NCBI GenBank assembly: GCA_965232515.1
Contig: CBDDPY010000002.1
Location: 4,192,001-4,256,000 of the forward strand
Length of the DNA: 64,000 bases
Source: Alphaproteobacteria bacterium
GTDB lineage: Bacteria; Pseudomonadota; Alphaproteobacteria; GCA-2731375
Direction of reading: 5' to 3'
This document shows positions 30,347-59,279 of the stretch, piece after piece (the first letter of the stretch is position 1; each line of letters opens with the position of its first letter). Below the pieces are notes generated by a model that saw only the letters and a program-made list of their open reading frames with translations, was not told the origin of the DNA and did not search any database. The position numbers were made by a program, and so were the translations under genes.

Positions 30347-31918
30347 TCAGCCGGCGCCGCCGGGGACGCGGTAAACCACCGCGGGCGGGTTCGGGCGCGA
30401 CAGGCGCGTGACGATGCCGGGCGGCAACACGCGATCGACCTGCAGCGCCGACAGCAGGATACCCAGCACCCGCGGCGGCGGGTCGATGCGCGCGACCTCC
30501 GGCCAATCGGCCCCGGGCTCGTACAGCGCCGGATCGAAGGCGGCGCGCTGATGCGCCCGGCCGGTCTTGGCGTTCTTGGGATAGTGGAAGAACAGACTGC
30601 CGGCGGGCGGCGGCTCGGGCCGCACCAGCGCCTCGTCGGCCGCCGCCCAGTCCAGGAAACGGTCGGCTTTTCGGGCCGTGCGCGGATCGGTATAGACCGC
30701 CTCGCTGGCACCCGCGACATAGCCGGCGAGCGCGCGTTCGCCAAACAGCGGATCGCGGTTCTCGACCATCAGGCAGAGCACGTTCGTGGCCACCAGGCCG
30801 GCCGCGACCAGACCGGCAAAGATCCGGGAGAAGCCCGGCAGCACCAGCACCAGCCAGACCGTGACCAGGACCACGCTGACGTAGGTCATGGCACTGAAGT
30901 ACCGCGGCAGCGGCCGGATCGACCCGCTGTAACCGATCCAGAGGAACCAGACCAGCGCGAAGCCGGCGAGCAGGCGGACGGTCCGCCGTTGCTGGTCGCT
31001 GAGACGCTGACTGCGGGCGGCCATCCAGGCGGCCGGGACGGCGAGGAAATACAGCAGGCCGAATTCCTGGTTCACGAGCAGCGCCAGCAGCGGCGCGATC
31101 AGGCGGTTGTCGCTGATATTCCCGCTGCCGCCGAGATGCGCGCCCGTGAGCGTGCCGATGTTGGCCACCGACGTGTGGGTGCCGAAGGCCGCCGTCAGCC
31201 GATGCAGCGGATCCCCGGTCATAATCACGTTGTAGAGCGTGTCGACGCCGACCACGACGGCGACGCCGGCGGCCATCACCCAATACAGCCGGCGCGGATG
31301 CAGGCTGCCGAGCAGGAACAGGATGGCGTAGAAGATGATCAGGCCGCCGCTGGTCAGCCGCGTCAGCAGCGCCATGCCGGCGGCGAGACCGGCGACGAAC
31401 AGCCAGGTCTTGGCCTTGGGCGACCCGGCCGCGGCCAGGAACAGCCATAGCGAAGCGGCGCAGAAGAAGACCTCGATGACGTCGACGCCGGCAATGGTCG
31501 CCTGCACCGCGAACAGCGGGGTCAGCAGCAACAGCGCCGTGCCGGCAAGCCCGACGCCCGTACCGAAGAAGCGCCGCAGGAAGACATAGCTGACCAGGAG
31601 CAGGCCCAGGAAATAGGCCGTTGTCACAGCCACGGTGTAAACCTCGGCGGCGCCGAACAGGCCGATCACGCCGGCGAGCGGCAGCACCAGGGTCAGCCGG
31701 TTCGACCAGTGGCTGTTGCCGACGACGGGCGCCTCGGTCAGCCACTTCTCGGCGGCGTTGAGGTAGATCTGGTCGTCGCTGCCGATATGGCCGACCCAGG
31801 CGAAAGACAAAACGGCGAAGCAGAGCAGCGCCAGGAACACTAGATTGGCCGTATCGCGCATGAACTCAATCGCCCCCTGATCGTCGGCCGACCCGCTGGC
31901 CCGGCCGAATCGCATCAC
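30347..31918 (-). CDS. GT-C (ArnT/PMT_2-like) polytopic glycosyltransferase
   Basis: SDDQIY acidic motif after the first TM, many TMs, LLTR, PRY; start may be 31862. Confidence 0.78.
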   Translation of the reverse strand: MMRFGRASGSADDQGAIEFMRDTANLVFLALLCFAVLSFAWVGHIGSDDQIYLNAAEKWLTEAPVVGNSHWSNRLTLVLPLAGVIGLFGAAEVYTVAVTTAYFLGLLLVSYVFLRRFFGTGVGLAGTALLLLTPLFAVQATIAGVDVIEVFFCAASLWLFLAAAGSPKAKTWLFVAGLAAGMALLTRLTSGGLIIFYAILFLLGSLHPRRLYWVMAAGVAVVVGVDTLYNVIMTGDPLHRLTAAFGTHTSVANIGTLTGAHLGGSGNISDNRLIAPLLALLVNQEFGLLYFLAVPAAWMAARSQRLSDQQRRTVRLLAGFALVWFLWIGYSGSIRPLPRYFSAMTYVSVVLVTVWLVLVLPGFSRIFAGLVAAGLVATNVLCLMVENRDPLFGERALAGYVAGASEAVYTDPRTARKADRFLDWAAADEALVRPEPPPAGSLFFHYPKNAKTGRAHQRAAFDPALYEPGADWPEVARIDPPPRVLGILLSALQVDRVLPPGIVTRLSRPNPPAVVYRVPGGAG

Positions 31919-32133
31919 CGGAATCGCCGGATACTTACCAGCCGGCCGACCCGAACGGAAGCGATCAAAGACTGAAGATCTTAACGAAACGTCGCCGCCC
32001 GCCGGCGCAGCGCGGGTTGCGGTTCCGCAGCTCCGTCACTACCAAAAAGCGATCCTTGCACCGCCGCACTGGTATTTTCCGCGCATTCGTGGTTCGCTTA
32101 CAGCTAAGAAGCTTCCGCCAAAGGGAGGCCGAC

Positions 32134-32622
32134 ATGCGAATGCTTATCGTCGCTGTGACATTTTTGGTTGGCTTGACATCGTCGGGCTGGACACAGGAAA
32201 GCCAACCGGCCGAGGAACCACCGCCCGCCGTCATCGCGGACGTGCAGGTGCTGCTGACCGATCTGGGCTTCAAGCCCGGACCGATCGACGGCATCTGCGG
32301 CGATCGCACGGTCGCCGCGATCAAGGCCTATCAGATCGCGGCCGGCGTCTCGGTCAGCGGCAAGATCACCGACGACCTGATCGCCAGGCTGAGAGCCGCG
32401 CGCGAGCGCGCGTCGACGCCGATTCCGGCGACGGTGCGGACAGCATCAAAACACCGATGCGAGTCCTACATCATGCTGATCGCCACCGGCGCCGTGCGCA
32501 TCACGGGCGGGTGCCCGGACGACGCGCCGGCGGCGCTACGCCAGCGTCATCAGGAAGAGATCCGGGCGGCCATGGCGCGCGATCCGGATCCGATCTTCAA
32601 AATCGTGCGCACGGCGCAGTAG
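32134..32622 (+). CDS. Secreted peptidoglycan-binding domain protein (PG_binding_1)
   Basis: Signal peptide from ATG 32134 (GGAGG RBS); VQVLLTDLGFKPGPIDGICGDRTVAAIKAYQ..G. Confidence 0.82.
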   Translation: MRMLIVAVTFLVGLTSSGWTQESQPAEEPPPAVIADVQVLLTDLGFKPGPIDGICGDRTVAAIKAYQIAAGVSVSGKITDDLIARLRAARERASTPIPATVRTASKHRCESYIMLIATGAVRITGGCPDDAPAALRQRHQEEIRAAMARDPDPIFKIVRTAQ

Positions 32623-32715: not shown

Positions 32716-33777
32716 ATGACATCGGTGTCACGGCGGCTGCCGACGACCATGAAACGACCTCAGGCACGCACCAACACCATCACATCGACCCCGGCGAGTC
32801 GGTTCTGGCCGGTCTGGACGGCGGCGCTGATGCTCGCCGGCCTCCTCGGCGCACTGATATCGGCGTCGGCCTTCGCGCAACAGTCGGAGAACCTGGCCGA
32901 CAAGATCAACAAGGGCACGGTCGGCATCATCTCGGGCGGTGTCGACGGCACCTATATCCGCATCGCCACCGATCTCGCCTCGGTGCTGGACAAAGGCGAT
33001 CAATTGCGCGTCGTGCCGATCGTCGGCAAGGGCTCGATCCAGAACATCGCCGATATCCTCTATCTCCGGGGCATCGACATCGGCATCGTGCAGTCCGACG
33101 TGCTGGCGCATATCCGGCGCGAGAACATCTATCCCAACATCGAGCAAAAGGTGAGCTACATCACCAAGCTCTATAACGAGGAGTTCCATCTGCTGGTGTC
33201 GCGGGACGTCCAGTCGGTGCAGGATCTGGCCGGCCGGCAAGTCAACTTCGGCGTTGCCGGCAGCGGCACCTTCATGACGGCGTCGATCGTCTTCGACACG
33301 CTGGGCGTCGACGTGCGGCCGGTCTCGCTCGATCAGGCCCTGGCGCTGGAGCGGCTGAAGACGGGCGAGCTGGCCGGCATGGTCTATGTCGCCGGCAAGC
33401 CGGCGCGGATCTTCTCGGACATCACGGCCGACGACGGCGTGCGGCTGCTCCCCGTACCGCTATCGCCCGAGCTGCTCGACACCTATCTGCCGTCGCGGTT
33501 CTCCAGCGAAGACTATCCACGGCTGCTGTCGTCGGGCGACACGGTCGACACCGTCGCCGTCGGGGCCGTCATGGCCGTCTACGACTGGAAGCCGGGCACC
33601 GCGCGCTATTACAAGGTCGCGCGTTTCGTCGACGAATTCTTCGGCCGGTTCGGCGATTTCCAGATGGCGCCACGCCACCGGAAATGGCTGGAGGTCAGCC
33701 TGACGGCGGAGCTACCGGGCTGGAAGCGCTTCGCCCCCGCCGAGAAGGCGCTGGCAAAGGTGAAGGGCGCGAACTGA
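32716..33777 (+). CDS. TAXI-family TRAP solute-binding protein (orphan)
   Basis: Signal peptide, SGGVDGTY, GKGSIQN, DIGIVQSD, LYNEEFHL, GSGT. Confidence 0.88.
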   Translation: MTSVSRRLPTTMKRPQARTNTITSTPASRFWPVWTAALMLAGLLGALISASAFAQQSENLADKINKGTVGIISGGVDGTYIRIATDLASVLDKGDQLRVVPIVGKGSIQNIADILYLRGIDIGIVQSDVLAHIRRENIYPNIEQKVSYITKLYNEEFHLLVSRDVQSVQDLAGRQVNFGVAGSGTFMTASIVFDTLGVDVRPVSLDQALALERLKTGELAGMVYVAGKPARIFSDITADDGVRLLPVPLSPELLDTYLPSRFSSEDYPRLLSSGDTVDTVAVGAVMAVYDWKPGTARYYKVARFVDEFFGRFGDFQMAPRHRKWLEVSLTAELPGWKRFAPAEKALAKVKGAN

Positions 33778-33941: not shown

Positions 33942-36900
33942 TTATTGCACCTTTGCGCCGGCCTGTTCGCGTAGCCAGGTTTTGAGCAACTCGATCTGGG
34001 TGGTGGCGTCGAGGTCGCCGCGTTCGGCGCCGATGGTGTACCACTCGAAGGCCCGCTCGGTATTGGTCGAGGGTCCGCGGATACCGACGCGGTCGAGATA
34101 GGACGGATCGTGGCTTTTGGCGAAGGCAGTGGCGCCCTTGGCACTGCCGCGCTTGGCGGCGAACTCGAACAGCAGGCGGGCGCCGGCGACATCACCCTCC
34201 CGCATCAGCTTGTCGCCCCGCTCCATCATGCGGGCGATCAGCAGTTCGCTCGACTGGCTGCCGCCGCTCAGATCGGGCGCCTTCCCGGCCGCGGCGTCCG
34301 CGACGCCGAGCAGTGCCGGCGCCGTCGACATGGCGACGGCCGGCCGCGTCTCGTCGGCGCGCGGCGGCAGCGGCGTGCGTTCCTCCTGGCCCGCCGTGAC
34401 CGTTGCCGCGTTCAGCGGTCCATCCTGCGCCGGTTCGCTCGATTCGGCCGGTGACGGCGACGGATTTTGTTCGGTCGTCGCCGCCGTCGGCGTCGCCTGC
34501 TCCGCCACCTCCAGCGGGTCGGTCTCTCTCGGCGCCGGCGGCTCGGTGGTCGTCGCCTCGTCGAGGTTTGCCAGTACTTCGAGATCCTCCGGCGGTATCG
34601 GCTCAGGTGCCCGGGCCGGGGTGGCCTGACGCGCCGGAGCCGGCTTTTGGGCGACTTGCGGCTCCGCCTTGGGTTCCTCAACAGGTGGCGGCGCGTCGAC
34701 CGTCACGCTGGCCCAGCTCACGGCGACGTCGGCGCCGTTCCTCTCGGTCGCGGCGGCCGCGACCGTCAACTCGAACGGATCGGACAGGCCGGCCGGCGGC
34801 GTCAGTACCAGGTTCGCGAGATCGGCCGCCGCCAACCGCCAGCGGCCCTCGCCCGCGGCCCGGCCGGCCGACAGGATCGCGCCCGCCGGCAGTCCGGAGA
34901 CGGTGAGCGACAGGCGTTCGGAGCCGTCATCGTCGACCAATGCCGCTTCAATCGGCAGCTCGATGGCGCCGTCCGCCGTCGCCGACGTCGCGCCAATGGA
35001 CAGCGACGGCGCATCGGCAATGGCGGCGATCCGCAGCGGGACGGCGACAGCGGTCGTCGCCGTGTCGCCGTCGGCCTCGGTCGCCGAGGCGGTGACGCTG
35101 AGTTCGAAAGCGCCGCTCGAATGCTCGGGCAGCGTCAGCGCGAGACCGTCGAGGTCGTCGACCGTCAGGCGCCAACGGCCATCGCCTTCATCGCTTCCCG
35201 CCGACGGTCGCGCGCCGTCCGGCAGACCGGCGATCTCGATCGAAAGCTGTTCGGAACCGTCGGTGTCGGCGAGGCCGGCATCGATGGCGAGCGGCGTCGC
35301 CGCGCCCTCGCGGCCGACCGCGTCGGCCACCGCCAGCCCCGGCGCGTCGGCGGCGCCGCGGATGTCGATGCCAACCTCGGTCACGGTCTCGGCGGTGCTC
35401 TCGTCCGCCTCCGTCGCGGTCGCGGTGATGGACAGATCCAGCCTGCCGCTGAAATCGGCGGGCGGGATCAGCGTCAAGTCGGTCAGGTCATCTGCCGACA
35501 GCCGCCAGCGACCGTCCGCGTCGGCCTCGCCAGCGGAAAGCCGGGCATCGTCCGCAAGGCCGGCGACCGTGAGCGTCAAACGCTCCGAGCCGTCGTCGTC
35601 GGCAAGCGTGGCGACGATGACGAGCGGCACGGCCTCGTCCTCGACGCCGGTCGCCGTCTCGGCCGACAGAACCGGTGCATCGGCGACCGGGTTCATGGCG
35701 ACGCGGACGACGCCGGTTGCCGTGGCGCTGTCGCCGTCGCTCTCGTCCGCCGTCGCCGTGACCGACAACGCGATCAGACCGCTGCGGTTCGGCGGCGGCG
35801 TGAGCGCGAGGTTCGCGAGATCGGCCTCGGCGAGCCGCCAGCGGCCGTCGCCCTCGTCCTGGCCGGCGGACAGCGTGGCGTCGGCCGGCACGCCGTCGAC
35901 GATGACGGCCGACAGTTTCTCCGAGCCGTCAGCATCGGCGGGCTCAGCCGCAATCTCGAGCGGGATCGGCTGGTCCTCGAGACCGACGACATTGGTCAGC
36001 ATGAGACGCGGCGTGTCGGCGACGCCCGCGACGCGGACCCGGACGATACCGAGGCTGACGGCGGCGTCGCCGTCGGCCTCGCGCGCGGTGGCGTTAACCG
36101 CGAGCTCGAAGGCGCCGCTGAAATCGGCGGGCGGCGTGAGCGTCAGGCCGTCGAGCGCGCCGGCGTCGAGCCGCCACCGCCCCTCGCCCTCGTCGTCGCC
36201 GGCCGACAGGCGGACGCCGTCGGGAACGCCCTCGAGGACGATGTCGGCGAGCGTTTCGGAGCCGTCCGTATCGGCCGTCGCGACGGCAATGGCGAGCGGC
36301 AGCGGCGCGTCCTCCGCGCCGTCCGCGTCTTTCAGGGTCAGGACGGGCGCGTCGGCGACCGCGGCCACGTCGACCGTGATGGCGCCGTCGCTGCTGGCCG
36401 TGTCGCCGTCCCGCTCCGTCGCCGTGGCGCTGAGCGACAGCTCGATCCGGCCGCTGAAGTCGGGCGGCGGGGTGAGGCTGAGGTCCGCGAGATCCGATGC
36501 CGCCAATTGCCAGCGCCCGTCACCGGCATCCTCGCCTGCGGACAGCGTCGCCCCCGCGGGCAAGCCGGCCAGCAACACACTCAAGCTCTCCGAACCGTCC
36601 GCGTCGGCGGCCGCGACCGCCAGGTCGAGCGGAATGGCACTATCCTCCTGACCGGCAAGCGCGTCGGCGGTCAGCACCGGCGGATCGGCGACGCCGGCGA
36701 GCGCGACCTCGACCCTCGCCGTGGCGCTGGCGTCCAGGCCGGCCTCACTGGCGACGGCCGTCAGGTCGAGCGCGAAGGTTCCGCTGAAATCGGCCGGCGG
36801 CGTCAGTTGCAGGCCGTCGAGATCCTCAAGCGACAGCCGCCAACGGCCGTCATCGCCGGCCTGGCCGGCGGACAAAGCGGCGCCGTCGGGCAGCCCGGCC

Positions 36901-39716
36901 AGGGCGAGGGTCAAACTTTCGGAGCCGTCGGGATCGGCCGACGAGAGCGAAATGGTCAGCGGAACCGCCTCGTCCTCGGCGCCCGTCGCGTCCTCGGCGA
37001 CGAGGATCGGCACATCCGGAACGCCGGTGACCTTGACCTGAACGATATCGGCGATGGTCGCGCTGTCGCCGTCGGCCTCGATCGCCGTCGCGGCAATCGC
37101 CAGCTCGAACACGCCGGCAAAGGACGGCGGCGGCACCAAGGCAAGGTCCGCGAGCTGGTCTGACGACAAGCGCCAGCGGCCGCCCCCGATCTCCTCGCCG
37201 GCCGAGAGCGTGGCGCCCTCGGGCAGGCCGGCGACCGTCACGGTCAGGCGCTCGGAGCCGTCCGCGTCGGCAACATCGGCCGCGATGGCGAGGGCGCCGG
37301 CCTGATCCTCGACGGTTTCGACCGGGGCGACGGCGAGCAAGGGATCGTCGGCGCGGGCCGCGAGCGTGGCGCGCAACGGCCGCGTGGTGGCCGGCGCGTC
37401 GGCGTCGTCCGCGCCGGCGCGCGCGGTGACCTCGAGCTCGATGGCGCCGCTGAAATCAGCCGGCGGGATCAACAGCAGACCGGCAAGCTCGCCGGCCGAC
37501 AAGCGCCAGGCGCCGCCATCGGTCGCGGTTCCGGCCGACAGCGTGGCGCCGGCGGGCAGGCCGGCGATCTCGACGACCACCGGCGTCGCGGGCGTCGCGG
37601 ACGGCAGGGCGATGTCGAGCGGCAGCGGCTGGTCCTCGACGCCGACCGCCGCCGTCACCTCTAACGCCGGCGCCACGGCGGCCTGCGCCACCACAACTTG
37701 CGACGGCGCGGCGTCGGCCAGTCGAGTCTCTCCCGCGTGGGCCGTGGCATCCTCAACGCTGTTCGCCAGGATCAGCGGCGCGACCGGCCGCGGCGGCGGC
37801 GCCATGGGCATGGTCCTGGTGGCGCCGATCCCCGGCACCGGATCGGCCGCAGCCGGATCGACCAACGTACGCCGCAGCGATTCCTCGGCCGAGGCCTGGC
37901 GGTCCTGCATGGCGCGCACGATGGTCAGGTTGTCGGTCACCAGGTCGGTCGCCTCGGGTTGCGCGACGGCGCGACTCAGGAGCGCGACGGCGCCGTCGAG
38001 CCGGCCGGTCCGGGCCAGCGACAGGGCGTAGTTGTTGAGGACCACAGGGTTGTCCGGCGAGAGCCGCAGCGCCTGCCGGTAGCTGTTGGCGGCGTCGGGC
38101 CGCTGCCCCAGGCTGTCATAGGCGGCGCCGAGCAGCGTGAAGATCTGCCAGTCCTCGGGCGCGCGCTCAGCGGCGCGCTCCAGGACCTGGATGGCCCGCG
38201 CGGATGCGCCATCGTCAAGCTCAACCTTGGCCAGCTCGATCAGCAGCGGCGGGTTGTCGCCCCGATCCGTCAACGCGGCCTCGACCAGGCCGCGTGCCTC
38301 GGCCGGGCGGTCGAGCTGGCGCAGACTGCGCGCCAGGCCCAGCAGCGCGTCGAGATCGGACGGCTGACGGTCGTAGAGGGCGCGGTAGCGGTCGACGGCG
38401 GCGGCAAAGTTGGCGTCCTGCTCGGCGTCGAGCGCGGCCGCGCGCAGGTCGGCGTCGGGCCGAATCGGTGCAAGCGGCGCGAACGGCGCGGTCGCGAGCT
38501 CCGGCACCGACGGCGGCGCCGGATCCATGACCCTGACGACGGGCGCCATCACGACCGAATCCTGACGATCGGCACGATCGAGATCGGCGCCGACCGCCGT
38601 CGCGCCGATGCCGATGACCAGGCCGAGCATGACATGGCCCGGCCGCAGCGGTGGCAGCAGACGCGGCAGCCACACCGTGCGTGGCGGCGTTTCGACGTCG
38701 CGGCGCCGTCGGGGCGGTCGGGCTGGCGGCGGCGTGCTCGTCTGGATCGTGACGGCCGGCGCCGGCGATGGCTCGGCTGCCGCCTCGGCCCGCGCGGCGG
38801 ATACCGGTTCCGTTTTCGGCTGTGACACGCTCGACGACGGATTGAGGTCGACGAGGTCGATCAGCCGGGGACGGTTCTCGGCGACGGGCACCGGGACGGG
38901 GTCGTCCGCCACCGGCAGCAGCGTGTCCTGCATGGCCTGCGCCACGTTCTCGGCCGTAACGCGCTCGGCGCGGGCAAGGCCGGCGAACAGCAGCGCATGG
39001 CCGGCGAGCTGCGCAACCAGCCGAAAGCTGCCGCCCGCGCGTTGCATAATCGCCTCGCAGGCATCGTCACCGAACAGATCGGGTCCCTCATAGCCGGCCT
39101 GCGCCAGGTGATGGTCGATGAAAGGGCGGATCTCGTCAGGCGCGATCGGCGCCAGAACGGCGTGCGGCAGGCTCGCGCCGGCGACCTCCTCGCCGGTGAG
39201 CGCGTCCAGCCGCGCCGCGATGTCGGGCATACCGACCAGCACGAACTGGGCGACGCCCTTGTCGGCGGGCGGGCGCGTCGACAGGCGCACCAGGTCGGTC
39301 AGCGTCTCGTCCGACAGATGCTCCGCTTCGTCGACCAGCAGGATCACACGGCCGTCGCCGCCGGCCGCGGCGATGCGGTCGGCCATGGCCTCGACCGACA
39401 GCGGTCCGTCGTCGGCCGACAGATCGATACCAAGATCGAGGCAGCAACGCGACAGCAGGTCGGCCAGGTTTTCGGACGCCCGGTAAGCCAGGAAGACGCG
39501 CCGCGACTGTGCTTCAAGGTCGCGTTGCAGCCGGCGCAGCAGCACGGACTTGCCGGCGCCCGCCGCGCCGGTCAGCAGGACGAGATCGGCGTCGCCCGAA
39601 AGCGCCGCCAGAAGCTGCCGGTGCGCCGCGCGGCCGCTGGACGTGAAGAAAAAGTGGGACGCATCCGGGGAAACCCGGAACGGGTTTTCTGTCAATTTCC
39701 AGTGTTCTGGAAACAT
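33942..39716 (-). CDS. 1924-aa fusion: ExeA-like AAA ATPase + TM + TPR + 9 Ig/cadherin-like repeats + Pro-rich linker + Sel1-like C-terminal domain
   Basis: HWKLTENPF N-terminus, Walker A GAAGAGKS, Walker B LLVDEAE; TM VMLGLVIGIGATAVG; TPRs (YRQALRLSPDNPVVLNNYALSL); 9 repeats with EDxxxPL..DGSE..GLP.GA.LSAG..GRWRL..PPADFSG; GDVAGARLLFEFAAKRG..AFEWY. Confidence 0.88.
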   Translation of the reverse strand: MFPEHWKLTENPFRVSPDASHFFFTSSGRAAHRQLLAALSGDADLVLLTGAAGAGKSVLLRRLQRDLEAQSRRVFLAYRASENLADLLSRCCLDLGIDLSADDGPLSVEAMADRIAAAGGDGRVILLVDEAEHLSDETLTDLVRLSTRPPADKGVAQFVLVGMPDIAARLDALTGEEVAGASLPHAVLAPIAPDEIRPFIDHHLAQAGYEGPDLFGDDACEAIMQRAGGSFRLVAQLAGHALLFAGLARAERVTAENVAQAMQDTLLPVADDPVPVPVAENRPRLIDLVDLNPSSSVSQPKTEPVSAARAEAAAEPSPAPAVTIQTSTPPPARPPRRRRDVETPPRTVWLPRLLPPLRPGHVMLGLVIGIGATAVGADLDRADRQDSVVMAPVVRVMDPAPPSVPELATAPFAPLAPIRPDADLRAAALDAEQDANFAAAVDRYRALYDRQPSDLDALLGLARSLRQLDRPAEARGLVEAALTDRGDNPPLLIELAKVELDDGASARAIQVLERAAERAPEDWQIFTLLGAAYDSLGQRPDAANSYRQALRLSPDNPVVLNNYALSLARTGRLDGAVALLSRAVAQPEATDLVTDNLTIVRAMQDRQASAEESLRRTLVDPAAADPVPGIGATRTMPMAPPPRPVAPLILANSVEDATAHAGETRLADAAPSQVVVAQAAVAPALEVTAAVGVEDQPLPLDIALPSATPATPVVVEIAGLPAGATLSAGTATDGGAWRLSAGELAGLLLIPPADFSGAIELEVTARAGADDADAPATTRPLRATLAARADDPLLAVAPVETVEDQAGALAIAADVADADGSERLTVTVAGLPEGATLSAGEEIGGGRWRLSSDQLADLALVPPPSFAGVFELAIAATAIEADGDSATIADIVQVKVTGVPDVPILVAEDATGAEDEAVPLTISLSSADPDGSESLTLALAGLPDGAALSAGQAGDDGRWRLSLEDLDGLQLTPPADFSGTFALDLTAVASEAGLDASATARVEVALAGVADPPVLTADALAGQEDSAIPLDLAVAAADADGSESLSVLLAGLPAGATLSAGEDAGDGRWQLAASDLADLSLTPPPDFSGRIELSLSATATERDGDTASSDGAITVDVAAVADAPVLTLKDADGAEDAPLPLAIAVATADTDGSETLADIVLEGVPDGVRLSAGDDEGEGRWRLDAGALDGLTLTPPADFSGAFELAVNATAREADGDAAVSLGIVRVRVAGVADTPRLMLTNVVGLEDQPIPLEIAAEPADADGSEKLSAVIVDGVPADATLSAGQDEGDGRWRLAEADLANLALTPPPNRSGLIALSVTATADESDGDSATATGVVRVAMNPVADAPVLSAETATGVEDEAVPLVIVATLADDDGSERLTLTVAGLADDARLSAGEADADGRWRLSADDLTDLTLIPPADFSGRLDLSITATATEADESTAETVTEVGIDIRGAADAPGLAVADAVGREGAATPLAIDAGLADTDGSEQLSIEIAGLPDGARPSAGSDEGDGRWRLTVDDLDGLALTLPEHSSGAFELSVTASATEADGDTATTAVAVPLRIAAIADAPSLSIGATSATADGAIELPIEAALVDDDGSERLSLTVSGLPAGAILSAGRAAGEGRWRLAAADLANLVLTPPAGLSDPFELTVAAAATERNGADVAVSWASVTVDAPPPVEEPKAEPQVAQKPAPARQATPARAPEPIPPEDLEVLANLDEATTTEPPAPRETDPLEVAEQATPTAATTEQNPSPSPAESSEPAQDGPLNAATVTAGQEERTPLPPRADETRPAVAMSTAPALLGVADAAAGKAPDLSGGSQSSELLIARMMERGDKLMREGDVAGARLLFEFAAKRGSAKGATAFAKSHDPSYLDRVGIRGPSTNTERAFEWYTIGAERGDLDATTQIELLKTWLREQAGAKVQ
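34695..37670 (-). repeat. Nine intragenic tandem ~333-nt (111-aa) Ig/cadherin-like repeats
   Basis: W(R/Q)L motif recurs near 37504, 37171, 36838, 36510, 36174, 35837, 35503, 35170 and 34838. Confidence 0.85.
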
Positions 39717-40706: not shown

Positions 40707-40735
40707 TGATTGCTGGTGATTGCTATTTGATTGCT
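40707..40735 (+). repeat. Three TGATTGCT direct repeats; putative integrase arm-type sites
   Basis: Exact copies start at 40707, 40717 and 40728 (10-11 bp period), between the att core and the int start. Confidence 0.65.
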
Positions 40736-40748
40736 GGCCGGCGGTGCC

Positions 40749-42020
40749 ATGAAAGCGAAGATTACAAAGCGGACTGTCGACGCAGCCAAGCCCGGCAAGC
40801 GTGATCAGTTCATATGGGATGCTGAGGTCAAGGGTTTTGGCTTCAAGCTCACACCGGCGGGAAGTCGGGTCTACCTACTGCAAACCCGTGTTGATGGCCG
40901 TGTCCGCAGATACACTATTGGCCGGCACGGCTCGCCCTGGACACCAGACCAAGCCAGGACAGAAGCCCGTCGTTTGCTGGGGATTGTAGCCAGCGGCGAC
41001 GACCCGGCAGCGGAAAGAACACCCGCAGAGCAGAATCTTACGGTTTCGGTATTGTGCGACCGATACCTTGACGCCGCTGAACGCGGTGAGGTGATCACGC
41101 GCTTCGACGTTCCGAAAAAGGCGTCGACGCTGGCGATGGATCGCAGCCGGATAAACCGTCACGTCAAACCGTTGCTCGGCAAGAAGCGCGTTCGTGACCT
41201 GACATCCGACGACATCCGCAAGTTTATGGCCGATGTTGCTGCAGGGAAGACGGCGACCGATGAGAAAACCAAAAGGCGCGGCCGTGCCATAGTTCGCGGG
41301 GGGCGCGGTGCGGCAAGTCGTACAGTTGGCATGCTTGGCGCCATCCTCGATTACGCGGTCACGCAAAAGCTGCGTACTGATAACCCGTGCCGTGGCATCC
41401 GACGCTTCAAAGACGCCAAGAACGAACGCTTCCTATCAGCCAGCGAGCTTACACGGCTCGGTCAGACGCTGACGGTAGCCGAGAGCGATGGCGAGAACAC
41501 TTACGCCATTGCCGCCATTCGGGCGTTGGCGCTTACGGGTTGCCGCAGAAACGAAATTCTGACGCTGCGTCGGGCGTGGATCGACTATGAGCACTCGGCG
41601 CTGCGTCTGCCGGACAGCAAGACAGGCTCAAAGGTCGTGGCGATCGGAGCGGCGGCACTCGAATTGTTCGCGTCAATACCCTCCATCGAGGGATGCCCAT
41701 TCGTCTTCCCCAATGCCAAGGGCGATGGGCACTTTGTCGGCATACAGCGAGTGTGGGAACGCATCCGGGAAAAGGCTGGTTTGGCAGATGTTCGGCTTCA
41801 TGATCTCCGGCACAGCTTTGCCTCCGTCGCGGCAACTGGTGGTGACAGTCTGTTGGTTATCGGTGCGTTGCTTGGACACCGCGATGCAAAGACGACGGGC
41901 CGGTACGCTCATCTGACGCAAGATCCGGTCAAACGCGCCGCTGATCGCATATCCAACCGAATATCCGCCGCCCTGAAGGGCAGCCAGCCCGCAAACGTCG
42001 TCCCAATCAAGAAGGCCTGA
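40749..42020 (+). CDS. Tyrosine integrase with N-terminal arm-binding domain (P4-type)
   Basis: IWDAEVKGFG..TIGRHG arm domain; catalytic TGCRRNE, SKTG, HDLRH, LLGH, RYAH. Confidence 0.93.
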   Translation: MKAKITKRTVDAAKPGKRDQFIWDAEVKGFGFKLTPAGSRVYLLQTRVDGRVRRYTIGRHGSPWTPDQARTEARRLLGIVASGDDPAAERTPAEQNLTVSVLCDRYLDAAERGEVITRFDVPKKASTLAMDRSRINRHVKPLLGKKRVRDLTSDDIRKFMADVAAGKTATDEKTKRRGRAIVRGGRGAASRTVGMLGAILDYAVTQKLRTDNPCRGIRRFKDAKNERFLSASELTRLGQTLTVAESDGENTYAIAAIRALALTGCRRNEILTLRRAWIDYEHSALRLPDSKTGSKVVAIGAAALELFASIPSIEGCPFVFPNAKGDGHFVGIQRVWERIREKAGLADVRLHDLRHSFASVAATGGDSLLVIGALLGHRDAKTTGRYAHLTQDPVKRAADRISNRISAALKGSQPANVVPIKKA

Positions 42021-56252: not shown

Positions 56253-56520
56253 GACCCCAAAACACTCCCACCGCAAAACGCGTTAACCGACAAGCGATTA
56301 GACCGAAACTCCATTGAGCCATTGCACCATTTTGGTGTGGAAGTGGCAATGGGTTCTCGCGCAACCCAAAACTGCGGAACGAGCAATTTCGCAGATTGGC
56401 GTCCGCTCAGGGACTGTTTGGACGTGGTACCGACATGCCTCTGTTTGGACACCAGAAGGTCGCCGACGAGGACCCAAATTTGCGATGAGAATTGAGCCGG
56501 CAGCTTACATTAAGGAAGTT

Positions 56521-58260
56521 ATGAGAGTCCGACAGCCGGTTTCAGTATATGAGCGCAATCCCTTTGTTGGGCCCAACGAATTGACGTTGGCAGACGTTGC
56601 CCGATGCCTCAAAGACGACCTGCAGATCCCGCCGGCACTTCGCAATGAGATTGCCACCTCAATCGATGCTCTCGCTGCTGCCCTGGAGGTCGCACCGTCA
56701 ATGGTGCCGGCGCGTGGACCGGACATCAAACATGCTCACAATCGCCTATGTCGTATGCCCGATGCTGAGAGCGAGAACGCCGCCATGCGGCACCATCGCA
56801 ATGCTTTGGTTGCCTGCCGTCTTCTAGGTATCGATCTGTCTAACAGGGCGTTTGCAAATTACCTAAGTGCTGATTGGCTGGATCTATGGCGTCAGTTGTC
56901 CGAAAGGCACGATCAGATCGTGCTGACACGCCTCATCCAGTTCTGTAGTGCCAACGAAATCAAGCCAACGCAAGTCAACGATGAAACGGTGAGAACCGTC
57001 AGGGCGGCATGCTTGGTCGGCGCGTTCGGCCAAGAATCCTGTACGCTCGCGAAACGAATCGAAAATGTCTGGAACAGACAGGTCGACGCGAACTCAAGCT
57101 GGCCGCGCCAGCGACTTACCCCACCGGAACGAGGATGGCGGGGAACAGCACTGCCGTTCGATGCCTTTCCTGAACAGTACCGCGAGTCCGTTGCGGCCTA
57201 CCTTTACTGGATCAGTGATCGCGACCCATTGCTCGAGAACCCGCCGCCTCGAATATGCGGACCGGCGACGGTGCGACATCAGCGAACGATGCTGAGACTG
57301 GCGGCGTCAGCATTGGTGAATTCCGGCTGGGCCGCAGCCGACATTAAGACGCTCTCGCATCTCGTCGAACCCGCTTCATTTCGGGCCATCCTTCGGTTCT
57401 ATCTGGCGCGCAATGGCGGCGAGCCGTCGGTCTTCGTCCGTGGTTTGTCGAGACTGCTCTACAACATCGCGCGCCACTGGGTGCGGGCGGACCGGGCGCA
57501 GTTGGATCTCCTTTGGCGGTTGGTGGAACGGCTGGGGCGGGATGACAGGGGACTGTCGATCCGCAACAGAGCGGTGCTGCGAGCATTTGACGATCCGGCC
57601 GAACGGCAAAAACTATTGAGTCTGCCGCAATGCATCGTTGTGTCAGCAAAACGTCGCCGACTGTGCTCGCACCGACGCGCGGTACGGGTGCAGGTCGCTC
57701 TGGCCCTGGAGCTGCTTCTTATGGCGCCAATGCGTATTGGGCAATTGATCCAACTTCAGATCGACAAGCACTTGCGGCTCGCTGAGCAGGGGCAGGATTT
57801 GGCAAAGATCGTCGTGCCGGACAGCGAACGAATCCTCGGCGATCCTCTCGAATACGAGCTGCCGCGGGAATCTGTCCGACTTCTGAGAACGTATCTGCAT
57901 GAACATCGCCCCCATCTCGCTATTCAGGGCGGGCAGTGGCTATTTCCATCGACGAGCGGCGCGCGGAAGGGGGCTACGCATTTGTCGTGCCAGATCCGAC
58001 AAGCCGCCCGCGACCATGTTGGGATTGATTTGGCGCCCAAACACCTCCGGCATTTCGCCGCCAAATTGGTGCTCGAAGCAGATCCGTATAGCCTGGAAAC
58101 AGTGAGGCGGCTTCTCGGGCATAGCACCGTGAGCCTCACCAAGTCGCTTTACGAAGATCTTGCCGCGCCAGCGAGCGCGCTTATGCATGACGAAATTGTC
58201 GCCGCGGGGCTGCGGTCGACAACAGGGGCCCAGAGCCGGCCGCGCCGGAACTGCCAGTGA
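56521..58260 (+). CDS. Large tyrosine recombinase (long N-terminal extension), partly degenerate active site
   Basis: APMRIGQL, PKHLRHFAA, LLGH, SLY; start 56521 with AAGGAAG RBS. Confidence 0.8.
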   Translation: MRVRQPVSVYERNPFVGPNELTLADVARCLKDDLQIPPALRNEIATSIDALAAALEVAPSMVPARGPDIKHAHNRLCRMPDAESENAAMRHHRNALVACRLLGIDLSNRAFANYLSADWLDLWRQLSERHDQIVLTRLIQFCSANEIKPTQVNDETVRTVRAACLVGAFGQESCTLAKRIENVWNRQVDANSSWPRQRLTPPERGWRGTALPFDAFPEQYRESVAAYLYWISDRDPLLENPPPRICGPATVRHQRTMLRLAASALVNSGWAAADIKTLSHLVEPASFRAILRFYLARNGGEPSVFVRGLSRLLYNIARHWVRADRAQLDLLWRLVERLGRDDRGLSIRNRAVLRAFDDPAERQKLLSLPQCIVVSAKRRRLCSHRRAVRVQVALALELLLMAPMRIGQLIQLQIDKHLRLAEQGQDLAKIVVPDSERILGDPLEYELPRESVRLLRTYLHEHRPHLAIQGGQWLFPSTSGARKGATHLSCQIRQAARDHVGIDLAPKHLRHFAAKLVLEADPYSLETVRRLLGHSTVSLTKSLYEDLAAPASALMHDEIVAAGLRSTTGAQSRPRRNCQ

Positions 58261-59279
58261 ATGATTTGCCACGTCAGGATCGGGAAGCGTGGCACCGCGC
58301 ACTTACGCCCGGTGACATTCTTGCCGGCGAGGGGCTGGCGGCGCACTGGTCGGACAGCACTCGAGAATCGATCATGGTCGCCTACAAGCGTTGGCTTGGA
58401 TATCTGAACAAGATGGATCCGACGGCAATGGCTGAGCGACCGGGCGACAGGATCACGCCCTCCCGTGTGCAAGGTTACGTCAGGCAGCTTCAGCAGGAAG
58501 TATCGCTCTGCGCGCAGCGGGACTACATCGGCCATCTTTGCACAGCAACGCGGGCGCTCGCGCCGGACCTTGATCGCACATGGTTGTTGGCGATACGGCG
58601 GCGCCTTACTCAGCTATCACGCCCGACGCCGAAGCGAGATCGCCTTGTCCCAACAGAACAGCTTATCGAGCTCGGCATTTCCCTGATCGAGCGTGGCAAA
58701 TGGGCGACGACGTTGACGCCCCTGTATCGGGCGGTGCTCGTCCGGGACGGCTTGATGATCGCGCTTCTCGCGACGCGACCGATCCGCCGCAGCAACCTGG
58801 TGAACCTTCGGATCGGTCAGCACATCCTGACATCGAGCAACGGTGACTTCGACCTACTAATCCCCGCTGCGGAGACAAAGAATCGGCGTCACATCGATTG
58901 GCGGCTTCCGGAGTTGCTGACGCCACACATGCAGACGTATCTAACAGACTATCGTCCAAAGTTCCGCAATGCTGAAAATCATGAATGGTTATGGGCGTCG
59001 GCTAGGGGCGGCGGGCTCTGCGCCGCGGCAGTCAATCATCAGGTTGCGCGCCGTACGCGTGACGCGTTCGGATTCGCCATCAGCCCTCACATGTTCCGAA
59101 GCTGTGTCGCGACAACGATCGCAGAGCGAGATCCTGCAGCTACGCCCACGGCAACGCACTTGCTGGGCCATCGCAGTGCAGAAACAACCGAACGGTTTTA
59201 CAACAGGGCTGGGGCGACTTTGGTGACTCAAGCGCACCAAGCGCGCTTACTCGCGATCCGACGCAGCAGCGGTGCTTGA
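58257..59279 (+). CDS. Tyrosine recombinase
   Basis: RPIRRSNL, ETKN, PHMFR, LLGH, RFYN; GTGA overlap with the upstream recombinase. Confidence 0.87.
   Translation: MNDLPRQDREAWHRALTPGDILAGEGLAAHWSDSTRESIMVAYKRWLGYLNKMDPTAMAERPGDRITPSRVQGYVRQLQQEVSLCAQRDYIGHLCTATRALAPDLDRTWLLAIRRRLTQLSRPTPKRDRLVPTEQLIELGISLIERGKWATTLTPLYRAVLVRDGLMIALLATRPIRRSNLVNLRIGQHILTSSNGDFDLLIPAAETKNRRHIDWRLPELLTPHMQTYLTDYRPKFRNAENHEWLWASARGGGLCAAAVNHQVARRTRDAFGFAISPHMFRSCVATTIAERDPAATPTATHLLGHRSAETTERFYNRAGATLVTQAHQARLLAIRRSSGA

What the first reader, a model, noticed from the sequence alone, without database searches (positions are those of the whole stretch)
33942..39716. Giant ExeA-ATPase/TPR/9x Ig-repeat/Sel1 fusion: candidate energised, envelope-spanning scaffold
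Seen: one uninterrupted 1924-aa ORF with an intact cytoplasmic ExeA-like ATPase (GAAGAGKS, LLVDEAE), one TM helix, TadD-like TPRs, nine acidic ~111-aa repeats (DxDGSE, GRWRL, PPADFSG), a Pro/Glu linker and a Sel1-like cap. Established: Aeromonas ExeA is an ATPase-TM-periplasmic PG-binding protein that helps assemble the secretin, and such Ig/cadherin-like repeats usually sit in T1SS-secreted adhesins. Inference: here the repeats are tethered to an inner-membrane ATPase and no RTX nonapeptides are visible. That suggests a periplasm-spanning rod that positions the Sel1 domain, possibly to organise export of the neighbouring glycan. I know of no characterised protein with this architecture.
Basis: partly seen in the sequence, partly recalled or inferred. 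Interest (0 to 1): 0.82.

Follow-up and report, generated by a model that had tools for sequence, protein, structure and literature searches.

The report
Giant ATPase-headed periplasmic tether protein
A real 1924-residue membrane protein that is an oversized member of an unstudied alphaproteobacterial family, in which a cytoplasmic ATPase head is joined through the inner membrane to a small helical tail that is usually encoded next to an orphan solute-binding protein.

Summary
One 1924-aa ORF on the minus strand (39716 to 33942) has an ExeA-like AAA_22 head, one weak TM helix, TPRs, nine ~111-aa cadherin-like repeats, a Pro/Glu linker and a Sel1-like tail. It is not a mis-join: a collinear 91%-identical 1932-aa relative exists, and contigs from three other runs tile or span it.

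The architecture is not isolated. The same head plus tail occurs in six shorter proteins (715-1118 aa), and one of them, P0070, also carries two of the same repeats. The tail defines a large family: 887 proteins, and 24 of 400 other class genomes.

The conserved neighbour is not the glycan cluster. It is an orphan TAXI solute-binding protein, adjacent in 9 of the 11 strongest tail loci plus the window, though in only 4 of 12 further loci. A congener keeps the TAXI block, not the glycan genes.

Best reading: a lineage-specific spacer expansion of a head-TM-spacer-tail tether that works with the TAXI protein. Its output is unknown. It is a new variant of a known kind, of moderate interest.

The parts
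33942..39716 (-). Whole CDS, 1924 aa plus stop
   Evidence: A collinear 91% relative, P0002, exists. Contigs span or tile the gene.
38907..39716 (-). Cytoplasmic ExeA-like AAA_22 P-loop head (residues 1-270)
   Evidence: Pfam AAA_22 E 9.1e-19. TIGR03015 scores 96.1 bits, below the cut-off of 324.5. Motif check against 29 sequences. 93.3% identical to P0002.
38637..38906 (-). Pro/Arg-rich cytoplasmic linker (residues 271-360)
   Evidence: Composition P 23%, R 12%.
38580..38636 (-). Predicted single TM helix (residues 361-379)
   Evidence: KD 1.65; 8 K/R before and 3 after. Family members have a TM at the equivalent place with KD 1.6-2.3.
37842..38441 (-). TPR module (residues ~426-625)
   Evidence: Pfam TPR families. 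44% identical to the genome's own 579-aa TPR+SPOR protein, which lies in a Tad/Flp pilus locus.
34683..37688 (-). Nine cadherin-like / tandem-95 repeats (residues 677-1678)
   Evidence: AF2 of repeats 4-5 gives pLDDT 95.8 and two beta-sandwiches. Foldseek hits SraP, cadherins and an RTX adhesin. Profile hit to 9cse_A at 7.6e-9.
34245..34682 (-). Ala/Pro/Thr/Glu-rich linker (residues 1679-1824)
   Evidence: Composition. 87% identical to P0002, among the least conserved segments.
33945..34244 (-). Sel1-like (SLR) tail, residues 1825-1924
   Evidence: 98% identical to P0002, the most conserved segment.
32716..33777 (+). Orphan TAXI-family solute-binding protein, convergent with the giant gene; proposed partner
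   Evidence: TIGR02122 scores 99.9 bits against a cut-off of 84.35. Signal-peptide-like N-terminus. Adjacency to the tail gene is conserved. No DctM gene lies in the window.
32017..32622 (+). Small PG_binding_1 protein upstream of TAXI on the same strand (true start uncertain)
   Evidence: Pfam PF01471 E 8.9e-10. Conserved with TAXI in the congener at 78% aa, but not found in other tail loci.

Best explanation
The gene encodes a bitopic inner-membrane protein. It is an oversized member of an uncharacterised alphaproteobacterial family built as: cytoplasmic P-loop head, one TM helix, periplasmic spacer, C-terminal Sel1-like tail.

In most members the spacer is a Pro/Ala-rich low-complexity stretch with no cadherin-like repeat, or with one or two. 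In this lineage it has been enlarged by a TadD-like TPR module and nine Ca-type cadherin-like domains of the sort used in RTX adhesins.

Proposed mechanism (inferred): the tail is a peptide- or protein-binding helical repeat held far from the inner membrane. It docks the periplasmic TAXI protein encoded next door, or a target that this protein presents. The ExeA-like head then couples that contact to ATP-dependent multimerisation in the inner membrane, as ExeA does when its periplasmic domain binds peptidoglycan.

Shown: the gene, its domains, the family, and the conserved adjacency. Inferred: topology, tail-TAXI contact, ATPase activity, and the physiological output (an envelope or exopolysaccharide-related process is only a guess).
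For: Real gene:
- P0002 is collinear at 91% identity with only in-frame indels.
- The segments are unevenly conserved: tail 98%, head 93.3%, repeats 92.5%, linkers 83-87%. This fits selection on the folded parts.

Family:
- The tail profile finds 24 of 400 other class genomes and 887 proteins at E<=1e-6.
- AAA_22 head plus tail occurs in G190 (832 aa), G329a (1118 aa), G329b (715 aa), P0033, P0070 and P0097.
- P0070 has the head (30% id), a TM, two repeats (34-39% id) and the tail.
- In a FastTree of 155 heads, 7 of 8 tail-bearing heads fall in one 14-row group (SH-like 81). The label needs 3 changes against 7.9 when shuffled, and 0 of 500 shuffles were as low.

Partner:
- TAXI lies beside the tail gene in the window and in 9 of the 11 strongest class-sample loci, at 35-60% identity and in varied orientation.
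- It is the only other family shared by those loci.
- The nearest DctM genes are about 60 and 77 kb away.

Background:
- ExeA is a bitopic AAA ATPase whose periplasmic binding to peptidoglycan drives multimerisation with the TonB-like ExeB (passages of PMC4098917).
- Solute-binding proteins commonly stimulate membrane receptors (passages of PMC9602780).
Against: - The TM score is borderline (1.65) and topology was not tested.
- The head has lost several family-conserved residues: R203 to H, P231 to F, N235 to A, C238 to A, G44 to D. It also sits on a long branch of 1.31, so ATPase activity may be altered.
- TAXI adjacency is not universal. It is 0 of 10 for weaker tail hits in the class sample and 4 of 12 new loci in a second sample, or 4 of the 8 with E<=1e-25. 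Two of those misses are at apparent contig ends, and only about 1.5 kb of flank was held.
- In the window the two genes are convergent, not co-transcribed.
- No binding test could be run.
- The tree is FastTree only, with long branches and weak support.
- RNA-library contigs do not prove transcription.
Confidence: 0.5

Rival explanations
1. One reading: an ExeA-like, energised, periplasm-spanning rod that positions the Sel1 domain to organise export of the neighbouring sulfated or pyruvylated polysaccharide.
For: - The gene sits at the edge of a ~33-kb glycan cluster holding 6 sulfotransferases, an arylsulfotransferase-like gene, 2 pyruvyl transferases, GT2/GT4 genes and a Wzx-like flippase.
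- The head's best NCBIfam match is the PEP-CTERM EPS-locus ATPase.
- One tail-bearing protein, P0242, is a Wzz+AAA_31 polysaccharide co-polymerase.
- A V. cholerae TAXI protein affects exopolysaccharide production independently of its transporter (abstract of PMC12718363).
Against: - No Poly_export or secretin gene lies near.
- The congener keeps the TAXI, PG_binding_1 and PMT_2 genes but none of the other glycan genes on its contig.
- No glycan gene is shared among the other tail loci.
- The genome has a separate PEP-CTERM-type locus with its own ATPase and Wza-like gene.
- The giant gene is convergent with its left neighbours.
Confidence: 0.15
2. A purely structural envelope tether or spacer, like TonB/TolA or an adhesin stalk. 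The long rod and tail bind peptidoglycan or an outer-membrane component, and the TAXI neighbour plays no direct part.
For: - Pro-rich spacers in the shorter members resemble TonB/ExeB-type periplasm-spanning segments (PMC4098917 passage).
- A PG_binding_1 gene lies two genes away and is kept in the congener.
- TAXI is missing from many tail loci.
Against: - The strong, orientation-independent TAXI adjacency at the best tail loci is left unexplained.
- PG_binding_1 was not found in other tail loci.
Confidence: 0.2
3. A surface adhesin: the repeat region is released or exported and acts outside the cell like RTX adhesins.
For: The repeats are 37-49% identical to those of RTX/cadherin giants in sister genera, and their fold matches adhesin stalks.
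Against: - No RTX nonapeptides.
- The C-terminus is a conserved Sel1-like domain, not a T1SS signal.
- No ABC/MFP exporter was found among the window ORFs scanned.
- The N-terminus is a cytoplasmic ATPase with an internal TM, not a signal or retention module.
Confidence: 0.05
4. Assembly artefact or decaying fusion without function.
For: Only one close relative is known. The head is fast-evolving. The gene lies next to an integrase island.
Against: - A 50-kb contig spans the gene, and an independent 8325-nt contig of a 91% relative also spans it.
- 517 substitutions have accumulated with only in-frame indels.
- The frame is open over 5.8 kb in both.
- The tail is 98% conserved.
Confidence: 0.03

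Closest known systems
ExeA/GspA of Aeromonas and Vibrio (T2SS secretin-assembly ATPase)
   Same: N-terminal cytoplasmic AAA_22 P-loop domain with the family's N-terminal PF...PD motif and Walker A/B, a single TM, and a large periplasmic part (PMC4098917 passages).
   Different: There is no PG_binding_1 domain in the protein, and no ExeB-like partner or secretin gene nearby. Identity to any family member is only 25-36%. In the tree it falls in the opposite half from a PG_binding-bearing ExeA-like protein.
P0070 (916 aa, metagenomic, unnamed) and the other head+tail proteins P0033, P0097, G190, G329a, G329b
   Same: Same head subgroup, TM and Sel1-like tail. P0070 also has two of the same repeats. 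TAXI is adjacent in G190 and G329b.
   Different: These proteins are 715-1118 aa. They have no TPR module and 0-2 repeats instead of nine, and their spacers are mostly low-complexity. None is characterised; the only source name is 'predicted ATPase ExeA'.
T1SS RTX adhesins (Lap-type 'Large adhesion protein', 9cse_A; Aeromonas RTX adhesin repeats, 6xi1)
   Same: Repeat sequence motifs (D.DGSE, LSAG, G.W.L) and a tandem beta-sandwich fold. Arrays of 5-11 such repeats occur in RTX giants of sister genera.
   Different: No RTX nonapeptides, no T1SS genes nearby, an N-terminal ATPase and TM, and a Sel1-like C-terminus.
XrtA/PEP-CTERM system-associated ATPase (TIGR03015)
   Same: Full-length alignment to the model, positions 1-265 of 269.
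   Different: The score is 96.1 bits against a cut-off of 324.5. The genome's own, better match (394 aa, 28% identical to the head) lies in a typical PEP-CTERM-type EPS locus 2.3 Mb away.

Membership tests
ExeA/GspA | Cytoplasmic AAA_22 ATPase with Walker A and B | tested here: met
ExeA/GspA | Single TM, N-in bitopic topology | tested here: inconclusive
   KD 1.65 and charge bias only; there is no topology predictor or experiment.
ExeA/GspA | Periplasmic peptidoglycan-binding domain (PF01471) | tested here: not met
   Not among the protein's Pfam hits: the best 25 of 30 were shown, and the regions were re-scanned. A separate PF01471 gene lies at 32017-32622.
ExeA/GspA | Encoded with ExeB/GspB and serving a T2SS secretin | tested here: not met
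   No secretin in the window; the genome's 3 are at 0.43, 2.18 and 6.51 Mb. GspB itself was not searched.
XrtA/PEP-CTERM ATPase TIGR03015 | Score above the curated cut-off | tested here: not met
   96.1 vs 324.5 bits
T1SS RTX adhesin | RTX nonapeptide block and C-terminal secretion signal with ABC/MFP genes | tested here: not met
   0 motif matches; no ABC/HlyD genes among the window ORFs scanned.
tandem-95 repeat protein (NF012211) | Score above the curated cut-off | tested here: met
   92.1 vs 90 bits
Sel1-like repeat (SLR) domain | Recognisable SLR sequence and helical-repeat fold | tested here: met
   Pfam is sub-threshold, but the family profile hits Sel1 structures at 2.2e-22. The AF2 model has pLDDT 96.3. 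TPR/SLR folds match at TMq 0.56-0.70, Foldseek E about 0.08.
Unnamed head-TM-spacer-tail family with TAXI neighbour | C-terminal tail matching the family profile | tested here: met
Unnamed head-TM-spacer-tail family with TAXI neighbour | Adjacent orphan TAXI gene | tested here: met
   Window 32716-33777, 164 bp from the giant's stop.
Unnamed head-TM-spacer-tail family with TAXI neighbour | Physical tail-TAXI interaction | not testable with these tools

The most novel reading that the evidence does not exclude
The tail-TAXI pair is a so far undescribed binding-protein-gated trans-envelope switch. The ligand-loaded TAXI protein docks on the Sel1-like tail and controls ATP-dependent assembly of interchangeable cytoplasmic NTPase heads (ExeA-like, STAND-like or Wzc-like). 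In this organism that would tune production of the adjacent sulfated exopolysaccharide. The nine Ca-stiffened domains would act as a ruler or fishing line that places the sensor beyond the peptidoglycan.
Probability: 0.15. Interest if true: 0.8.

Novelty: new variant of a known kind. Interest (0 to 1): 0.5.

Why it matters
ExeA-like ATPases are widespread: 16781 relatives at E<=1e-3. Their periplasmic parts are highly modular, including SPOR, SH3, PG_binding, ankyrin, TPR and Ig-like modules. Even so, only the T2SS member has been studied.

This gene points to a sizeable, unnamed alphaproteobacterial family. In it a small Sel1-like tail is combined with different cytoplasmic NTPase heads and is often encoded beside an orphan TAXI binding protein. 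That would give TAXI proteins a partner other than a TRAP permease, which is topical because a V. cholerae TAXI protein acts on biofilm independently of its permease (abstract of PMC12718363).

The giant form is a natural experiment on spacer length. It re-uses adhesin stalk domains inside the envelope.

Tried and rejected
Searches and scans that gave nothing useful:
- Tandem Repeats Finder found no DNA repeat.
- No tRNA in the window.
- The promoter/terminator scan was uninformative: 1 promoter-like and 3 terminator-like sites, at or below shuffle expectation.
- The genome-contig scan gave only two weak TPR matches.
- The search of earlier findings gave nothing.
- PADLOC gave only P-loop-local matches at E>3e-4.

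Literature:
- Search listings for TAXI/Sel1/ExeA, PEP-CTERM/ExeA and TAXI family/Sel1/signalling showed no paper on a tail-TAXI pair or on this architecture. Subscription journals are not covered.

Rejected or qualified leads:
- A cluster of ORFs shared by 4 tail loci proved to be unrelated ABC ATPases.
- The first ML tree run timed out, so FastTree was used.
- The whole-protein search over 40 relatives used a stricter first look and may have missed weak matches.
- G001 (81% complete) lacks the giant gene in its contigs, but its TAXI contig ends 123 nt past the TAXI stop. Absence there is therefore not shown.

Sequencing runs:
- Parts of the gene without cover in X3 and X4 are not evidence of anything.
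Full report
**1. The observation**

The frame 33942..39716 is open only on the minus strand. It encodes 1924 residues from an ATG that aligns with the start of the ExeA-like family.

- AAA_22 at 43-170, E 9.1e-19.
- Walker A GAAGAGKS and Walker B LLVDEAE.
- TPRs at about 436-590.
- Nine repeats with a period of 110-112 residues, with eight D.DGSE motifs; repeat 1 lacks the motif.
- An Ala/Pro/Thr/Glu linker.
- A helical tail.

The repeats are 35-58% identical to each other, and there is no DNA-level tandem repeat. The array is therefore old, not a recent amplification.

An AF2 model of repeats 4-5 (26-row alignment, pLDDT 95.8) shows two tandem beta-sandwiches. These match SraP cadherin-like modules, cadherin ectodomains and an RTX adhesin stalk. 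By sequence profile the nearest solved chain is a 'Large adhesion protein' (9cse_A, 7.6e-9).

The tail is below the Pfam Sel1 threshold on its own. A profile of 11 family tails nevertheless hits solved Sel1 proteins at 2.2e-22. The model (pLDDT 96.3, six helices) superposes on TPR/SLR domains at TMq 0.56-0.70, with weak Foldseek E-values for this 100-residue query.

The TM helix is the weakest element. Its KD score is 1.65, with 8 K/R before it and 3 after. A second hydrophobic peak at 674 is the first strand region of repeat 1 and does not pass the threshold in the 91% relative.

**2. It is not a mis-join**

A 1932-aa protein from another assembly is collinear at 91% identity. Four runs were laid on the gene:
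- One run holds an identical 50-kb contig. This may be the source of the window.
- A second sample of the same study holds identical small contigs.
- One RNA-library run holds about 98% identical contigs in 26 of 30 bins.
- Another RNA-library run holds a single 8325-nt contig across 33801-39898 with 517 differences and 26 gapped positions.

The listed indels are in frame: 3 nt, and 21 nt in total. The 21-nt insertion matches the 7-residue insertion in the relative. RNA-library contigs do not prove transcription.

Conservation between the two proteins is uneven: tail 98%, head 93.3%, repeats 92.5%, TPR 88%, linkers 83-87%.

**3. Where the parts come from**

None of 40 related genomes has a full-length match. 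That search used a stricter first look. The parts match separately:
- The repeats are 37-49% identical to open frames of up to about 3300 aa in a sister genus. The two examined are RTX/cadherin proteins, one next to ABC exporters, and they contain arrays of the same unit.
- The TPR module is 44% identical to the genome's own 579-aa TPR+SPOR protein in a Tad/Flp pilus locus.
- The head is only 28% identical to the genome's own AAA_22 protein. That protein sits in a typical PEP-CTERM-type polysaccharide locus, with Wzz/GNVR, AAA_31, a beta-barrel, a DUF3473 deacetylase, a FemAB-like gene and a GT, and has a Poly_export gene nearby.

Against 1.84 billion representatives the head has 16781 relatives at E<=1e-3, but none above 36% identity. 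The 149 listed non-self hits are 296-1115 aa.

I scanned 51 of those 149. Their C-terminal parts are very varied: SPOR, DUF2914, SH3_3, PG_binding_1, TPR, ankyrin, Big_9 and Ig_3. ExeA-like heads with swapped periplasmic modules are thus a common theme.

**4. The family it belongs to**

Searching with the tail was decisive.

Two proteins of about 540 aa have a cytoplasmic N-terminus, a hydrophobic TM-like stretch seen by eye (though P0159 does not pass the Kyte-Doolittle threshold), one copy of the same repeat (BLAST 6e-9) and the same tail (46% identity, 6e-17).

A three-row tail profile found the tail in 24 of 400 other genomes of the class. An 11-row profile found 887 proteins at E<=1e-6 among 8000 scored candidates. 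Most are 180-600 aa 'hypothetical proteins', and in the 120 listed only P0001 and P0002 exceed 1100 aa.

Heads vary:
- none recognised (most);
- nSTAND1+AAA_16;
- a Wzz+AAA_31 co-polymerase (P0242);
- AAA_22.

AAA_22 head plus tail occurs in three genomic proteins of 715, 832 and 1118 aa. It also occurs in 3 of the 149 nearest head relatives: P0033, P0070 and P0097. P0070 (916 aa) has the head, a TM, two repeats and the tail, so it is the closest architecture.

In a FastTree of 155 head domains, 7 of the 8 tail-bearing heads lie in one 14-row group (SH-like 81) and the eighth lies in its sister group. The label needs 3 changes against 7.9 in shuffles (0 of 500 as low). A PG_binding-bearing ExeA-like protein and the genome's PEP-CTERM ATPase lie in the other half. 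Long branches, the giant's among them (1.31), make this tentative.

The simplest history is an ancestral head-TM-spacer-tail protein into which a TPR module and an expanded repeat array were inserted.

**5. The conserved neighbour**

The gene that ends 164 bp from the giant's stop, on the other strand, is a TAXI-family solute-binding protein. It scores 99.9 bits on TIGR02122 against a cut-off of 84.35. It has a signal-peptide-like N-terminus and its family profile hits solved TAXI proteins.

From the class sample I fetched 21 tail loci:
- A TAXI orthologue (35-60% identity) lies beside the tail gene in 9. All 9 are among the 11 loci with tail E<=2e-11.
- None of the 10 weaker loci has one. Those weaker loci may be generic Sel1 proteins.

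From the ORF coordinates, the two genes are on the same strand in seven of the nine loci and convergent in two, as in the window. All-against-all clustering of ORFs from 11 loci found no other shared family, apart from shadow ORFs and unrelated ABC ATPases.

A second sample (50 genomes of one order) gave 12 new tail loci held with about 1.5-kb flanks:
- TAXI is present in 4. That is 4 of the 8 with E<=1e-25 and 0 of the 4 weaker.
- Two misses lie at what appear to be contig ends.

The link is strong but not universal.

The genome has 53 DctM matches. The nearest are about 60 and 77 kb from this TAXI gene, so it is an orphan.

**6. The glycan cluster**

The left 33 kb of the window is a large polysaccharide cluster. 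It holds 6 sulfotransferase-family genes, an arylsulfotransferase-like gene, 2 pyruvyl transferases, methyltransferases, GT2/GT4 genes and a Wzx-like flippase. The right 23 kb carries integrases and nucleases.

Four results argue against a functional link to the giant gene:
- The giant gene is convergent with its left neighbours.
- No Poly_export or secretin gene is nearby.
- In the same-genus genome G001, the TAXI (87% aa), PG_binding_1 (78%) and PMT_2 (79%) genes are syntenic, at 81.6% nucleotide identity over 3459 nt. The remaining 4 kb of that contig has no homologue of the window's glycan genes.
- That contig stops 123 nt past the TAXI stop, so the giant gene's presence there is unknown.

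The glycan link is therefore proximity only. It is not excluded: one tail-bearing protein is a Wzz-type co-polymerase, and a V. cholerae TAXI protein influences exopolysaccharide production independently of its permease (abstract of PMC12718363).

**7. Mechanism**

What is established for ExeA comes from passages of PMC4098917:
- It is a bitopic AAA ATPase.
- Its periplasmic domain binds peptidoglycan.
- That binding drives multimerisation with ExeB, a TonB-like protein with a proline-rich region.

The family described here looks like a single-chain version of that logic: head, TM, proline-rich or folded spacer, and a protein-binding tail.

I propose that the tail contacts the TAXI protein, or a target that this protein presents, and that this contact is coupled to head multimerisation. 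This is inference. The head keeps Walker A/B, Q157 and the sensor-2-like R232, but has lost R203, P231, N235 and C238, which are conserved in 86-93% of 29 relatives.

By recalled domain sizes, nine cadherin-type domains would be longer than the periplasm is wide. A tilted or laterally sweeping tether fits better than an upright strut.

**8. Verdict**

- The artefact reading is refuted.
- The 'ExeA-like' and 'Sel1-like' labels hold at the domain level.
- Membership of ExeA proper, of the PEP-CTERM ATPase equivalog and of the RTX adhesins fails on defining features.
- The protein is an extreme, lineage-restricted variant of a recurrent but unstudied family, whose best-conserved partner is an orphan TAXI protein.

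Noticed in passing
window 684-31918: Very large polysaccharide cluster with six sulfotransferase-family genes, an arylsulfotransferase-like gene, two pyruvyl transferases, two TylF-type and one class-I methyltransferase, several GT2/GT4 genes and a Wzx-like flippase. No Wza/Wzc was seen in the window. This suggests a sulfated, pyruvylated, methylated exopolysaccharide.
   Followed up: partly
window 30347-31918 (-): A PMT_2 (GT-C, protein-mannosyltransferase-like) gene is kept next to the PG_binding_1 and TAXI genes in the congener at 79% aa. It could glycosylate a periplasmic target such as the Thr/Pro-rich linker of the giant protein. This is pure speculation.
   Followed up: no
window 40731-64000: Mobile-element-like region starting 1 kb from the giant gene. 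It holds three phage-integrase-family genes (40731-42020, 56314-58260, 58257-59279), an AAA_25+HTH gene, and SNase, SRAP and DNA/RNA non-specific endonuclease genes. GC is lower (0.53-0.60 against 0.70-0.74 in the giant gene). No tRNA was found at its edge.
   Followed up: no
G000:C2:6564000-6574000 (L012): Canonical PEP-CTERM/exosortase-type EPS locus with its own AAA_22 ATPase, Wzz/GNVR, AAA_31, beta-barrel, DUF3473 deacetylase and FemAB-like genes, and a Poly_export gene just upstream.
   Followed up: partly
P0169, P0180, P0182 and similar: A subgroup of proteins of about 500-580 aa joins an nSTAND1/AAA_16 head (one is named 'conflict system STAND superfamily ATPase' by its source) through a strongly hydrophobic TM to the same Sel1-like tail. 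This would be a membrane-spanning STAND-like architecture.
   Followed up: partly
own genome: There are 53 DctM matches, so this is a TRAP-transporter-rich genome. Three secretins are present, one near the Tad locus that also holds the TPR+SPOR paralogue.
   Followed up: no
P0035, P0133, P0086: Other ExeA-like proteins carry one or two copies of the same cadherin-like repeat without the tail. P0035 combines them with SPOR and DUF2914. This repeat has therefore been recruited into ExeA-like periplasmic parts more than once.
   Followed up: no
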